UHGV virus genome: UHGV-0245185
DNA length: 36,271 nt
Origin: a virus
Reading direction: 5' to 3' (one strand)
A model generated the notes under the pieces. The model searched no databases. It was not told the DNA's origin and worked only from the letters and a program-made list of their open reading frames with translations. Positions 6,671-35,921 of the stretch are shown in pieces. Positions within the stretch are counted from its first letter, which is position 1; the number at the start of each line of letters is the position of its first letter. Position numbers and translations under genes: made by a program.

Positions 6671-6888
6671 ACATTCATCAACTTAGCCGCTTCAAGAGCT
6701 GCATCTAGTGAATCAAACTGGTCAACGTATTCAATCAATTCGCCATAATTAGCATATAACCACCATTGGCTAAATTCATACTCAAGGATGAATCCATTTC
6801 CTTCAATTTGAGTTAAACCAATGCCATTTGTATTTACTTCATATCCGGCAAGACGCAAATCGTTAATAAGAGCTTCGTTCATATTCAT
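6667..6888 (-). CDS. Hypothetical protein (73 aa)
   Basis: ORF track; ATG start; coupled to the neighbouring ORF. Confidence 0.5.
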   Translation of the reverse strand: MNMNEALINDLRLAGYEVNTNGIGLTQIEGNGFILEYEFSQWWLYANYGELIEYVDQFDSLDAALEAAKLMNV

Positions 6889-7211
6889 ACCTTAGCAATT
6901 TTCAGGTCAGCAAATTTTTTCTTGCGTTGATTTTTCATACGACGAATAGTTTTATCGGAAATTTCATGCTTTTGATAAGCTTTAGATTCTACACCAAAAG
7001 CTTTAACATCAAATTCTGACAAGATATATTGAACCAACAATTCACGGACAGTATTGCGCCCAATCTTCTGATCATTCTGTTTCATCGTCTGATGAAGCTC
7101 TTTTTCCCATTTATCCAAAATTTGAGGAGTTACAATATCGCCTTTTTCTAGCAAAGAAACTACTTTATCATATGCGTAAGAATTGATGGCGTTTTTAATT
7201 TGAATAGTCAT
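6885..7211 (-). CDS. Hypothetical basic protein (108 aa)
   Basis: ORF track; ATG start preceded by GAGGATAATGT. Confidence 0.55.
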   Translation of the reverse strand: MTIQIKNAINSYAYDKVVSLLEKGDIVTPQILDKWEKELHQTMKQNDQKIGRNTVRELLVQYILSEFDVKAFGVESKAYQKHEISDKTIRRMKNQRKKKFADLKIAKV

Positions 7212-7246
7212 ACATTATCCTCAATTGCATTAAAATTTTATTATCC

Positions 7247-7266
7247 AAAAAAGGGCCGAAGCCCTT
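7247..7266 (-). terminator. Intrinsic terminator (UUCG-tetraloop hairpin plus U-tract)
   Basis: Plus aaaa-aagggccgaagccctt; minus reads AAGGGC-TTCG-GCCCTT-TTTT. Sits immediately after the stop of ORF 7265..7465. Confidence 0.6.
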
Positions 7267-7465
7267 AGCTAAACCGTTTGGCACCCTTCCAGCCTTCGTA
7301 CATCATTGCAACTGACAATGACAAAGCTCCTTCGCATGCTGCATACTTATTATTCCAGAACCAATTTAGAAAAACTTCATCCTCAATACCATTATGTTTC
7401 ATGTTCTGGAAAAATTTGGCACGTTCTTCAGCAATTCGTTGTGATAATTTAGATTCAGGATTCAT
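7265..7465 (-). CDS. Hypothetical protein (66 aa)
   Basis: ORF track; ATG start. Confidence 0.5.
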   Translation of the reverse strand: MNPESKLSQRIAEERAKFFQNMKHNGIEDEVFLNWFWNNKYAACEGALSLSVAMMYEGWKGAKRFS

Positions 7466-7597
7466 TTAAATTTTCCAGTTACCATTTTCATCAATAAATT
7501 TAATCCAGTCATTTACTGACCACTTGGTCGTATCGCCCTTTGGAGCAACATTTAAAGTGTATAATCCTTGTTTAAAAAGCATACGTTTGATATTCAT
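7466..7597 (-). CDS. Hypothetical small protein (43 aa from the internal ATG)
   Basis: The track ORF 7466..7681 overlaps its neighbour by 77 nt. The ATG at 7597 has a strong SD (GAGGAAAAT) and follows the upstream stop at 7605. Confidence 0.4.
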   Translation of the reverse strand: MNIKRMLFKQGLYTLNVAPKGDTTKWSVNDWIKFIDENGNWKI

Positions 7598-7604
7598 ATT
7601 TTCC

Positions 7605-7898
7605 TCAGCTGTAACGATAGCACTCGTTTGATTTACGCTTAGCAACTCGTTGAGAAGTATTGTAATCAAAATCATCGTCAATGTAAACTGATTTTTTCAA
7701 CTTTCTTACTTCACCACGTAATTGGCGATTTAACTCATCTTTAACTTCTGAATCAATGCCTTTCATTCTACGCCATTTATCTGAGCGAAAAATGTTTTCA
7801 ACCATATCTTTATGACTTACACCATCAGGAGCTTTACGCTTTCCGAAATAGTCATAATCACGAACTTTCAAGTCTTTACGACGATACGTTTTACCCAT
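7605..7898 (-). CDS. Hypothetical basic protein (97 aa)
   Basis: Track ORF 7605..7943; the ATG at 7898 (MGKTYRRKD...) has SD AAGGAAAT 8 nt upstream and overlaps the stop of the upstream small ORF. Confidence 0.5.
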   Translation of the reverse strand: MGKTYRRKDLKVRDYDYFGKRKAPDGVSHKDMVENIFRSDKWRRMKGIDSEVKDELNRQLRGEVRKLKKSVYIDDDFDYNTSQRVAKRKSNECYRYS

Positions 7899-8067
7899 GG
7901 AGTTTAATTTCCTTAGCAACTGAACTAAATACAGCACGGTCACAAATCAAGCGTTTATTCCATTTAAGTAAAGTATAGTGAACCTCAAAATCATCTACTG
8001 CTGTAACAATAACGATATGTCCATTAACACGATAATACTGATCTCTTTTAATCTCTTTATCAACCAT
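7891..8067 (-). CDS. Hypothetical small protein (58 aa), not in the ORF track
   Basis: ATG at 8067 with SD GAGGAT; translation MVDKEIKRDQYYRVNGHIVIVTAVDDFEVHYTLLKWNKRLICDRAVFSSVAKEIKLHG. Stop overlaps the next start (ATGGGTAA). An early promoter lies upstream. Confidence 0.35.
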   Translation of the reverse strand: MVDKEIKRDQYYRVNGHIVIVTAVDDFEVHYTLLKWNKRLICDRAVFSSVAKEIKLHG

Positions 8068-8097
8068 ATCAAATCCTCAAAGGCAATTCATATGTTA

Positions 8098-8127
8098 ATA
8101 ATACCACAGTTTGAACTTGTTGTAAAC
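8098..8127 (-). promoter_or_regulatory. T4-type early promoter (GTTTAC, 18 nt, TATTAT)
   Basis: Minus strand GTTTAC-AACAAGTTCAAACTGTGG-TATTAT; lies between the nrdH-side terminator and the ORF starting at 8067. Confidence 0.5.
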
Positions 8128-8198
8128 AACTTTGTGAAAATTATTTTAGGGAATGATAAGAAGGGAACGATAGCTTAGAATGGTAATATACAGAATGT

Positions 8199-8222
8199 GA
8201 GAAAGAAAGGCCCAGAGGGCCC
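8199..8222 (-). terminator. Intrinsic terminator after nrdH
   Basis: Minus strand GGGCC(C)-TCT-GGGCC followed by TTTCTTTCTC, immediately after the nrdH stop. Confidence 0.55.
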
Positions 8223-8225
8223 GTC

Positions 8226-8549
8226 TTAGTCTTCTATGATATCTCTATCATATCCAAGTGAAATGAGAGTTTCTTTAAAGTGTTTAATGTTCTTTTGTCT
8301 AGAATCATTAATGAAAATGACTGGATAACGAATGTTAAGAGATGTGAATCCAGCACGTTTAGCAAGAGATACAATCAGTGGACGATCATACTCAATCTTA
8401 CCATTATTTGTAAGAACTTTATAGAAAGTAAAAGGAGCATTGAGCTCCTTTAAAAGTTTTGTAACTGATTGACATCCAGGACAACGACCAACTTCATCTG
8501 GAATTCCATAGACTTCAATCTTATTCTTTAAGTTCGAGTTTTGTTCCAC
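8226..8549 (-). CDS. nrdH: Glutaredoxin/thioredoxin-fold protein (NrdH-like, CPGC motif)
   Basis: KIEVYGIPDEVGRCPGCQ... redoxin fold. No in-frame ATG near the domain start; the GTG at 8549 has AAGGAA SD 9 nt upstream. The track start at 8678 is also GTG and overlaps the upstream ORF. Confidence 0.65.
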   Translation of the reverse strand: MEQNSNLKNKIEVYGIPDEVGRCPGCQSVTKLLKELNAPFTFYKVLTNNGKIEYDRPLIVSLAKRAGFTSLNIRYPVIFINDSRQKNIKHFKETLISLGYDRDIIED

Positions 8550-13039: not shown

Positions 13040-13249
13040 TTAATTTCGCAATTTATTAAGTTCTTCATAATCAATCCAGGATTCTAGTCCTGATGGCAAA
13101 TCAGATTCAATTTCCCAAAGAAGTTCTTCAATTTTCTGAAGACGATCTAATTCTTCAGCAGGAATAGTAACCATTGACGGAGTTCTTGATACGCTAATAT
13201 CGTAAATCATATTTACCCCAGTTTGACCATACAATCGCCATATTTCCAT
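13040..13249 (-). CDS. Hypothetical protein (69 aa)
   Basis: ORF track; ATG start. Confidence 0.45.
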   Translation of the reverse strand: MEIWRLYGQTGVNMIYDISVSRTPSMVTIPAEELDRLQKIEELLWEIESDLPSGLESWIDYEELNKLRN

Positions 13250-13428
13250 TTAGAAATAGACTTTTCACCATTAGAATAATAAACTTCAAGTTTAGCACGA
13301 TTATTTTTAATTTGAATAACCTTGGCTGTCATCAAAGTTCCATACCCATAGTAAACTGCGACTTCATCACCTACATATACCGCGCTTCCGCGGTAATCAT
13401 GGATATAATCAGTTCCTTCGAGCATCAT
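13213..13428 (-). CDS. Hypothetical protein (71 aa)
   Basis: ORF track; ATG start. Confidence 0.5.
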   Translation of the reverse strand: MMLEGTDYIHDYRGSAVYVGDEVAVYYGYGTLMTAKVIQIKNNRAKLEVYYSNGEKSISKWKYGDCMVKLG

Positions 13429-14023: not shown

Positions 14024-14236
14024 TCATTCAGGACAATTAGGAACGTTTTTAGAAGCCCTTTCGCGGCGTTCAACCATAGCCATAATGGCATCCCAAGCTG
14101 GAGGTTTAAAATCTAAATCGTCACAACCATGAATCTTTCCACGCATTTCCAGATCGTCTTCTTCACCAGCCATAATAATTTTAATTAGACTGGAATTACT
14201 TGAAGCTGCAATATCTTCTAATAGACGCTTTTTCAT
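14024..14236 (-). CDS. Hypothetical protein (70 aa)
   Basis: ORF track; ATG overlaps the stop of the next gene (ATGA). Confidence 0.45.
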   Translation of the reverse strand: MKKRLLEDIAASSNSSLIKIIMAGEEDDLEMRGKIHGCDDLDFKPPAWDAIMAMVERRERASKNVPNCPE

Positions 14237-26574: not shown

Positions 26575-26688
26575 TTAAATGATCAGTATCTTTTTACCAA
26601 TTCCAATGGCAAAACCTTTATTAACAGCGAGTTCAATTAAATTATCAAGTTCACGTAACACTTCATATTGTAACTCAAAACTATTCAT
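26575..26688 (-). CDS. Possible small ORF (37 aa), not in the ORF track
   Basis: ATG at 26688 overlaps the upstream stop (ATGA), SD-like GGTGA; translation MNSFELQYEVLRELDNLIELAVNKGFAIGIGKKILII. Confidence 0.3.
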   Translation of the reverse strand: MNSFELQYEVLRELDNLIELAVNKGFAIGIGKKILII

Positions 26689-31001: not shown

Positions 31002-31145
31002 TTCTGTATTTACCCATTACCGCACTTGGGCTCGACCTTATTACAGGTTGGCGGGAATCCCTCATAGAATCATGAGGTCCAGCTTGTTCCCATGTTATTT
31101 AAATGTAAATATTTTTGCCGTAATACTTATACCAGTGTGGCTTCA

Positions 31146-31514
31146 TTAAAATTTTTCATTGAGTCGTTGTTGACTCAATTTAATAGCTGATTTGCATGGA
31201 TTATAATCATTTTTCCATTCTGCTGGAATATCGCTGATGTCAGGAACTTCAGTATCTTTTATACTAAACCCACGTTTTAAGCATTCCATTATAATGTCTG
31301 ATTGACGTTTTCGCAAAAATTCTAACTTATCGTAAAAGAACGTGACATGACCAGAACCTAAAATAAACTCGGAAGATATTTTAAAATCTTTAACCCGTTT
31401 ACCATTTGCCACGTGTTTACGAACTATACCAAAAACACGTGGCAATTCACGGTATTCCGCAATTAAATGTTGGTCAGCAAGTTCAGATACTAAAGTCAAA
31501 TTAATACGAGTCAT
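31146..31514 (-). CDS. denV: Endonuclease V (pyrimidine-dimer DNA glycosylase) DenV, truncated at 122 aa by a frameshift
   Basis: [29 protein letters not shown]... matches T4 DenV as recalled. The missing tail [18 protein letters not shown] is encoded in the adjacent frame at 31099-31160. Confidence 0.85.
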
Positions 31515-31520
31515 TTTATC

Positions 31521-31569
31521 TCTCCAAGTAACTGTGAATATACTATCACAATTCTAGGAGAAAATAAAC
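31521..31569 (-). promoter_or_regulatory. Early promoter upstream of denV
   Basis: Minus strand GTTTAT-TTTCTCCTAGAATTGTGA-TAGTAT-ATTCACAGTTACTTGGAGAGATAAA-ATG. About 85% identical over 40 nt to the module upstream of ipII. Confidence 0.55.
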
Positions 31570-35789: not shown

Positions 35790-35921
35790 AGTTTTGTGAA
35801 AAAATTTTTAAAAATTTTTAGGGAATTCTAGGGCAGGGAGGGGCAATTAAAAGATAGGATAATATATTATAAAGGGTATAAACTAAATGATGCCTAGAGA
35901 GGTCCAGAAAGGCCTAGATAC

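What the first reader, a model, noticed from the sequence alone, without database searches (positions are those of the whole stretch)
31099..31514. denV is split by a single-nucleotide frameshift in an A5/T4 homopolymer, cutting off the conserved C-terminal WYKYYGK tail
The denV frame stops at 122 aa (...SQQRLNEKF*). Immediately after, in the adjacent frame, 31146..31099 encodes (KIL)[15 protein letters not shown], which matches the aromatic C-terminal tail of T4 endonuclease V as I recall it. Adding one nucleotide in the run GAAAAATTTT (plus 31148-31156) gives a 138-aa protein, the T4 length. This is either a natural v-minus allele, a homopolymer sequencing error, or slippage-dependent expression.
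Basis: partly seen in the sequence, partly recalled or inferred. Interest (0 to 1): 0.6.

Follow-up and report, generated by a model that had tools for sequence, protein, structure and literature searches.

The report
Recurrent natural frameshift truncating phage denV
A T4-like phage has lost one A from a six-A run in its UV-repair gene denV, cutting off the conserved tail of the enzyme; the same loss recurs in other wild phages, so it is a real but ordinary loss-of-function allele, not a sequencing error or a recoding signal.

Summary
On the minus strand, denV (31514..31146) ends after 122 aa (…NEKF*). The conserved tail [15 protein letters not shown] lies in the adjacent frame (31146..31099). 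Restoring one A in GAAAAATTTT gives a 138-aa protein that aligns end to end with T4 endonuclease V. T4 and 134 of 135 GenBank phages with this local sequence have A6; the window has A5.

It is not a one-off error. The identical 122-aa product is encoded on non-identical contigs from at least three samples. The same deletion also occurs on two other denV haplotypes. One is the cultured BASEL phage Paracelsus (Bas36), which differs from YUEEL01 by this base alone over 672 aligned columns.

Nothing supports programmed recoding. There is no canonical slippery heptamer, no downstream structure, and the shifted arrangement is not conserved. The tail is retained in all 119 family representatives (P126 and Y129 invariant) and is confidently ordered in a model, so the truncated product is probably inactive or crippled.

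Best reading: a recurrent replication-slippage mutation at an A6 hotspot in a dispensable gene. T2 already provides a natural precedent, having no denV at this locus. Interest is low to modest.

The parts
31146..31514 (-). Truncated denV ORF: 122 aa plus a TAA stop. It retains Thr2, Arg3, Arg22, Glu23, Arg26, Arg117 and Lys121, and ends ...NEKF (I122F, then stop).
   Evidence: Pfam PF03013 Pyr_excise scores 50 bits against a cutoff of 23.
31522..31525 (-). GGAG Shine-Dalgarno sequence 7 nt upstream of the denV ATG, so the gene still has a normal translation start.
   Evidence: Read directly from the sequence.
31148..31156 (-). Frameshift site: A5 (31156..31152) followed by T4 (31151..31148). 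Relatives and T4 have A6 here, at codons Glu120-Lys121-Ile122.
31156..31158 (-). TGA stop in the tail frame immediately upstream of the run. The tail frame is open only from inside the run, so any recoding would have to happen within these 9 nt.
   Evidence: the frame-2 translation reads [11 protein letters not shown]...
31099..31146 (-). Orphaned out-of-frame tail [18 protein letters not shown], corresponding to DenV residues 124-138. It carries no further mutations.
   Evidence: It is identical to the tail of the intact alleles.
31144..31148 (-). TAATG overlap of the new denV stop with the Met124 codon. It is a by-product of the frameshift and only a theoretical reinitiation site.
   Evidence: Its significance is inference only.

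Best explanation
This is a genuine, naturally circulating frameshift allele of denV (T4 endonuclease V, a pyrimidine-dimer DNA glycosylase) in a T4-like Tequatrovirus. One A was lost from the ancestral A6 run at codons Glu120-Lys121-Ile122, most likely by slipped-strand mispairing during replication (inferred). Translation then reads Phe and stops, giving a 122-aa protein. That protein lacks the last turn of helix 3 and the whole ordered C-terminal segment (residues 123-138, including invariant Pro126 and Tyr129 and near-invariant Trp128 and Lys130). The same event has happened independently on at least three denV haplotypes, so the run behaves as a mutational hotspot. The truncated alleles persist in wild phages because denV is dispensable, especially where there is no UV (inferred). 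The product is most likely inactive or severely impaired, which would make the phage v-minus and UV-sensitive (inferred, not shown).
For: A6 is ancestral. T4, the six nearest relatives and 134 of 135 GenBank phages with this local sequence are in frame.

The allele is real. The exact 122-aa protein is encoded on 7 contigs. L008 is 100% identical to the window. L009, L010 and L020 are identical to each other and 99.5% identical to the window. L011 is 98.7% identical. These come from different samples and assemblers. The differences between them are confined to mosaic patches away from denV.

The event recurs. Paracelsus (Bas36) differs from YUEEL01 by only the missing A over 672 aligned columns, and about 11 other GenBank records match it at 99.9% with one extra base. 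Exact look-ups find the '...EKF' 122-aa form on three haplotypes: 5-7, 13 and 5 contigs, against 11, 180 and 53 contigs for their intact twins.

The tail matters. None of 119 family representatives (55-98% identity) lacks it. P126 and Y129 are 100% conserved, W128 90% and K130 88%, comparable to the catalytic E23 and R26. The AF2 model (pLDDT 93.5) has helix 3 at 108-124 and the tail at pLDDT about 86-93.

It is not an error-ridden assembly. Of the UGKSEcP1 CDSs with a match in the window (77 compared), only denV and two small ORFs are newly disrupted.

There is a precedent for natural loss. T2 has no denV at the syntenic locus.
Against: No reads were available, so within-sample A5/A6 proportions are unknown. 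Contig counts are not independent observations, because ENA, JGI and Logan re-assemble the same runs, and Bas36 is a widely shared laboratory phage. All known catalytic and DNA-backbone-binding residues are retained in the 122-aa product, so residual glycosylase or AP-lyase activity cannot be excluded. The 1980s mutagenesis work I recall (Recinos and Lloyd 1988 on Tyr129/Tyr131; Ishida et al. 1990 on the aromatic region) could not be retrieved from the library, so loss of function rests on conservation and the model. The tail ORF carries no secondary mutations, which fits a recent event but does not prove the gene is dead.
Confidence: 0.75

Rival explanations
1. Homopolymer sequencing or assembly error: the phage really has A6 and an intact 138-aa DenV.
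For: The lesion lies in a 9-nt A/T run. The window's source contig also carries two private disruptions that cannot be verified without reads: a 37-aa frameshifted ORF and a 70-aa nonsense ORF. Paracelsus differs from its relatives by this base alone.
Against: The same A5 appears in non-identical genomes from at least three samples, under assembler-specific contig names (k141_, NODE_, a scaffold name, and Logan). It also appears on three haplotypes. 134 other GenBank assemblies of the same local sequence came out A6, so the run is not systematically misread. A run of 5-6 is short for an Illumina consensus error (own knowledge).
Confidence: 0.05
2. Programmed recoding: full-length DenV is made from the A5 allele by -1 ribosomal frameshifting or transcriptional slippage in the run.
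For: A P-site tRNA-Lys on AAA can re-pair perfectly one base back (A-AAA), and the resulting product would be the exact wild-type ...[10 protein letters not shown]... sequence (inference). The tail ORF is still intact.
Against: A AAA UUU is not an X XXY YYZ heptamer, because tRNA-Phe would have to re-pair with AUU. There is no significant downstream structure (z = -0.79), no Rfam element, and no Shine-Dalgarno-like stimulator upstream. The run is far shorter than the roughly 9 or more bases known to support RNA polymerase slippage (own knowledge). The shifted arrangement is not conserved: 134/135 local relatives and 119/119 family representatives are in frame. The perfectly matching slip at UUU-UAA is +1, which leads to the wrong frame (...F-NEATLV*).
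Confidence: 0.03
3. The truncated enzyme is still functional, either alone or complemented by the 15-aa tail peptide made by reinitiation at the UAAUG overlap, so the allele is phenotypically silent or altered rather than null.
For: All catalytic and backbone-binding residues (Thr2, Arg3, Arg22, Glu23, Arg26, Arg117, Lys121) are retained. The allele persists in several lineages at appreciable frequency. The frameshift creates a TAATG stop-start overlap. The C-terminus tolerates change: a 183-aa stop-loss variant is on 19 contigs, and cv-pdg with a C-terminal NLS was used in vivo (PMC5768739).
Against: No natural family member lacks the tail, and P126 and Y129 are invariant. The tail is ordered in the model, and helix 3 is clipped. 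There is no Shine-Dalgarno sequence before the internal ATG. Persistence is equally explained by dispensability of denV, since T2 lacks it entirely.
Confidence: 0.12

Closest known systems
T4 endonuclease V / T4-pdg (denV; PDB 2END, 1VAS; Pfam PF03013)
   Same: Same gene in the same position, between the e/ipII side and the downstream small-ORF block that runs to regB (vs.8-vs.3 in T4), as shown. The repaired protein is co-linear with 2END over residues 1-137 (E = 9.5e-69). T4 has the same A6 run at codons 120-122.
   Different: The window's reading frame breaks at codon 122, so the product is 122 aa and lacks residues 123-138, including the WYKYY segment.
Laboratory T4 v (denV) mutants and the natural v-minus state of T2 (Streisinger 1956; Harm 1963; own knowledge)
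   Same: Viable phages lacking functional endonuclease V, expected to be UV-sensitive. Natural loss is confirmed here for T2, which has no denV at the syntenic locus.
   Different: T2 has lost or replaced the whole gene. Here a single base is missing and everything else, including the orphaned tail coding sequence, is intact.
Frameshift hotspots at A-runs in T4 (Streisinger slipped-mispairing model; rII and e gene hotspots; own knowledge)
   Same: A 1-nt loss in a run of six A's, recurring independently on three haplotypes.
   Different: Seen here as standing variation in wild and cultured phages rather than as laboratory mutants. Mutation rates were not measured.
Programmed -1 frameshift sites (e.g. 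E. coli dnaX A AAA AAG)
   Same: An A-rich lysine codon context in which tRNA-Lys could re-pair at -1.
   Different: No tandem slippery heptamer, no stimulatory structure or Shine-Dalgarno sequence, and no conservation of the out-of-frame arrangement.

Membership tests
Pyrimidine dimer DNA glycosylase (T4 endonuclease V, Pfam PF03013 Pyr_excise) | Significant match to the family profile | tested here: met
   50 bits against a curated cutoff of 23, residues 1-86.
Pyrimidine dimer DNA glycosylase (T4 endonuclease V, Pfam PF03013 Pyr_excise) | N-terminal Thr2 (alpha-amino nucleophile) and Glu23, plus basic residues Arg3, Arg22, Arg26, Arg117 and Lys121 | tested here: met
   All are present in the 122-aa ORF. 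Their conservation across the family was confirmed. Their roles are from established literature (own knowledge).
Pyrimidine dimer DNA glycosylase (T4 endonuclease V, Pfam PF03013 Pyr_excise) | Complete C-terminal segment (P126, W128, Y129, K130) in frame with the core | tested here: not met
   The ORF stops after residue 122 and the tail is encoded out of frame. All 119 family representatives retain the tail.
Pyrimidine dimer DNA glycosylase (T4 endonuclease V, Pfam PF03013 Pyr_excise) | Cyclobutane-dimer glycosylase / AP-lyase activity | not testable with these tools
   Needs an enzyme assay or a UV-survival phenotype.
Programmed -1 ribosomal frameshift site | X XXY YYZ slippery heptamer in the zero frame | tested here: not met
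   The zero-frame codons are GAA AAA UUU UAA. Only the P-site Lys tRNA can re-pair, because UUU would have to re-pair with AUU.
Programmed -1 ribosomal frameshift site | Downstream stimulatory hairpin or pseudoknot, or upstream Shine-Dalgarno-like element | tested here: not met
   Fold z-score -0.79, with 39 of 200 shuffles folding at least as well. No Rfam hit. No GGAG-like motif within 20 nt upstream.
Programmed -1 ribosomal frameshift site | Out-of-frame arrangement conserved among relatives | tested here: not met
   134/135 GenBank phages with this local sequence are A6 and in frame, and 119/119 family representatives are co-linear.
Transcriptional slippage site | Long homopolymer (about 9 or more A or T) | tested here: not met
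   The runs are A5 and T4. The threshold is from own knowledge.
Sequencing/assembly artefact | Confined to one assembly and not reproduced in independent data | tested here: not met
   The same allele is in L008, L009 (identical to L010 and L020), L011 and Paracelsus, and on a third haplotype.

The most novel reading that the evidence does not exclude
The A6 run in denV acts as a reversible on/off contingency switch in T-even phages. Off (A5) alleles arise repeatedly, reach appreciable frequency (roughly 7-40% of contigs within a haplotype) where UV is absent or where DenV is costly, and can revert by regaining one A. Alternatively, loss of the tail is itself adaptive.
Probability: 0.08. Interest if true: 0.5.

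Novelty: new member of a known kind. Interest (0 to 1): 0.2.

Why it matters
It matters mainly in practical terms. First, annotators and users should treat the 122-aa 'DNA endonuclease V' of this clade, and of the widely used BASEL phage Bas36 (Paracelsus), as a probable pseudogene. Those phages may be UV-sensitive like T2, which affects UV-based experiments and any phage-therapy preparation that involves UV exposure. Second, it is a clean natural example of recurrent homopolymer frameshifting in a dispensable T-even accessory gene, and denV shows several other lesions in relatives (stop-loss, gene fusion, complete absence). That pattern fits relaxed selection on UV repair. It does not reveal a new mechanism.

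Tried and rejected
- Literature: four searches for experimental data on C-terminal truncation of T4 endonuclease V and one for denV pseudogenes found nothing usable. The review PMC3260424 had no relevant passage. A search for the sample accessions found no paper, so the habitats of the carrier samples remain unknown.
- IMG/VR: exact scans found 0 A5 and only 2 A6 copies of the 21/22-mer, too few to be informative.
- Metagenome scan: a pattern accepting either allele gave 13 hits, which at first looked like 5 A5. Nine of the 13 have no denV by tblastn and are chance matches. The real tally is 1 A5 (L020, identical to L010) and 3 A6.
- E. coli complete genomes and the GTDB genome set: no hit.
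- Pfam could not address the tail because its model covers only residues 1-86.
- The record 'T4_ev151' turned out not to carry the T4-type denV, so NC_000866 was used instead.
- A suspected frameshift at about 13219 was rejected. The split 71 + 69 aa state is the common one (419 contigs) and the 129-aa fusion is the rare variant.

Full report
**Observation**

On the minus strand an ORF with a good GGAG Shine-Dalgarno sequence runs 31514..31146 and encodes 122 aa ending ...SQQRLNEKF, then TAA. The stop follows the run G-A5-T4 (31156..31148). In the adjacent frame, starting at an ATG that overlaps the stop (TAATG), 31146..31099 reads [15 protein letters not shown]. Inserting one base in the run gives a 138-aa protein that aligns 1-137 with T4 endonuclease V (2END, E = 9.5e-69).

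**Which base is missing**

The six closest GenBank phages (96.7-99.3% identical over 601 nt) all read GAAAAAATTTT where the window reads GAAAAATTTT. T4 itself has GATGAAAAAATT at the same codons, Glu120-Lys121-Ile122. A6 is therefore the ancestral in-frame state, and the window has lost one A.

**Real allele or error?**

- The exact 122-aa protein is in public collections on 7 contigs.
- L008 (ENA ERZ27264772, contig k141_12984, 72,963 bp) is 100% identical to the window over 6.4 kb and is evidently its source.
- L009, L010 and L020 (SAMEA3360674 / ERZ1741563 / OBRH01) are identical to each other and 99.5% identical to the window.
- L011 (SRR25011259) is 98.7% identical to the window.
- The differences between these genomes are clustered in mosaic patches away from denV. 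These are different genomes of one clade sharing the allele by descent.
- A sister copy with A6 (L018) differs in denV by one substitution plus the indel, and the exact repaired 138-aa protein is on 11 contigs.
- Independently, the cultured BASEL phage Paracelsus (Bas36, MZ501096) is annotated with a 369-nt, 122-aa 'DNA endonuclease V'. Over 672 aligned columns it differs from YUEEL01 only by the missing A, and about 11 other GenBank records match it at 99.9% with one extra base.
- Exact look-ups of hypothetical '...EKF' truncations found a third haplotype (Kha5h-like) carrying it. The counts of truncated against intact forms are 5-7 vs 11, 13 vs 180 and 5 vs 53 contigs. These counts include re-assemblies of the same runs, so they are not independent tallies.
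- Among GenBank phages with the same 28-mer context, 1 of 135 is A5.
- As a quality control I compared the 77 complete annotated CDSs of the UGKSEcP1 stretch with the window (four had no match). Besides denV, only two small ORFs are newly disrupted in the window (a 37-aa frameshift and a 70-aa nonsense ORF). Both are private to the source contig.

A single-assembly artefact is therefore excluded for denV. Without reads, a small residual doubt remains.

**Recoding?**

- The tail frame is closed by a TGA immediately upstream of the run ([11 protein letters not shown]...), so a shift could occur only within the 9 nt.
- The zero-frame codons GAA AAA UUU UAA do not form an X XXY YYZ heptamer. Only the P-site tRNA-Lys could re-pair at -1.
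- The perfectly matching slip at UUU-UAA is +1 and leads to ...F-NEATLV*, not to the tail.
- The 106 nt from the run onward fold no better than shuffles (z = -0.79). Rfam gives nothing relevant, and no Shine-Dalgarno-like stimulator lies upstream.
- The out-of-frame arrangement is the rare exception, not the conserved state.

Trace spontaneous -1 slippage cannot be ruled out, but there is no evidence of a programmed site.

**Consequence for the protein**

- Pfam's model covers only residues 1-86, so I examined the family directly.
- Among 119 cluster representatives at 55-98% identity, none lacks the C-terminal segment. The two short entries are truncated at the N-terminus.
- P126 and Y129 are invariant. 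W128 is 90% conserved and K130 88%, on a par with E23 and R26.
- An AlphaFold2 model of the 98%-identical intact protein P0017 (pLDDT 93.5) has helices at 14-36, 64-80 and 108-124. The tail scores pLDDT about 86-93, so it is ordered.
- The truncation therefore clips the end of helix 3 and removes a conserved, structured segment, while leaving Thr2, Glu23 and the basic DNA-binding residues in place.
- From memory, which I could not verify in the library, site-directed work in the Lloyd and Ohtsuka laboratories implicated Tyr129, Tyr131 and Trp128 in dimer-specific binding, and chain termination there abolished activity.

Loss or severe reduction of function is the most likely outcome, but it is inferred.

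**Mechanism and context**

Runs of six A's are classic T4 frameshift hotspots explained by slipped-strand mispairing (Streisinger; own knowledge), and three independent occurrences at this run fit that. denV is dispensable. T2, long known as naturally v-minus, has no denV at the syntenic locus: the e side and the downstream gene align, and the denV segment is replaced. Relatives show other denV lesions. One is a TAA>CAA stop-loss giving a 183-aa protein in the five nearest relatives, found on 19 contigs. Another is a 195-aa fusion of DenV residues 1-97 to a downstream 92-aa protein in phage G2540. Together these suggest relaxed selection on this gene in enteric T4-like phages. The habitats of the carrier samples could not be established.

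**Verdict**

The finding is accurate, and the 'natural v-minus allele' reading is the best supported (confidence about 0.75 for a real allele with loss or severe reduction of function, and about 0.9 for a real allele alone). It is a new, apparently undescribed example of a well-known kind of event in a non-essential gene. Its practical relevance is that Bas36 and this clade may be UV-sensitive and that the 122-aa annotation should be flagged as a probable pseudogene. Interest 0.2.

Noticed in passing
window 31099-31101 (denV stop of the tail frame); L001-L005 position ~801: The five nearest relatives (UGKSEcP1, EPIMAM01, PBM-1, UGKSEcP2, Killian) have the canonical denV stop TAA changed to CAA. 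This extends DenV by 45 aa into the intergenic spacer, giving 183 aa. The exact protein is on 19 contigs. The window keeps TAA.
   Followed up: partly
window 26575-26688 (-): A 37-aa ORF is a frameshifted version of a 57-aa hypothetical protein that is found on 418 contigs. The window lacks a C (TGGAATTGGT-AAAAAG against TGGAATCGGTCAAAAAG). The truncated form occurs only on the window's source contig (ENA ERZ27264772). It could be a private mutation or an assembly error, and reads are needed to decide.
   Followed up: partly
window 14024-14236 (-): A 70-aa ORF ends at ...NVPNCPE*, where relatives continue ...CPECGTEQ...CRHCKH... to 105 aa. This is a nonsense change at a Cys codon that removes half of an apparent zinc-ribbon motif. 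It is private to the source contig.
   Followed up: partly
window 13040-13428 (-), G-run at ~13219: The window has two ORFs (71 + 69 aa), while UGKSEcP1 and Killian have a 129-aa fusion caused by G5 instead of G4. The split state is the common one (exact 71-aa protein on 419 contigs) and the fusion is the rare variant. This is another homopolymer-length polymorphism.
   Followed up: yes
protein P0013 (Escherichia phage vB_EcoM_G2540, QBO63362.1): A 195-aa 'pyrimidine dimer DNA glycosylase' is a fusion of DenV residues 1-97 to an unrelated 92-aa phage protein, presumably through a deletion. This chimera bridges the 90% clustering, so the 122-aa DenV fragments are filed in a cluster made up mainly of the unrelated 92-aa protein.
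   Followed up: partly
L031 (T2, AP018813.1) 6744-8545: T2 has no denV between the e/internal-protein side and the vs.8-like gene. A different 158-aa gene occupies the slot, and tblastn finds no DenV remnant in 20 kb. Many product names in that record look mis-transferred (for example 'tail sheath monomer' for vs.6/grcA).
   Followed up: partly
protein P0085 (endonuclease V [Escherichia phage T4], 121 aa, contig 167,548 bp): A deposited T4 genome has DenV called from Met18, so it lacks the catalytic N-terminus (Thr2, Arg3). This is either a lesion near the start of the gene in that stock or a gene-calling artefact.
   Followed up: no
window ~35811-35830: The window has a tandem 10-nt duplication, TAAAAATTTT TAAAAATTTT, where UGKSEcP1 has a single copy. 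It is in an intergenic region.
   Followed up: no
L007 (Paracelsus) and L028 (YUEEL01): In this sub-lineage denV directly follows the lysozyme gene e, with no ipII between them. The window and T4 have ipII there, and T4 also has ipIII. The internal-protein cassette next to denV is therefore mosaic.
   Followed up: no
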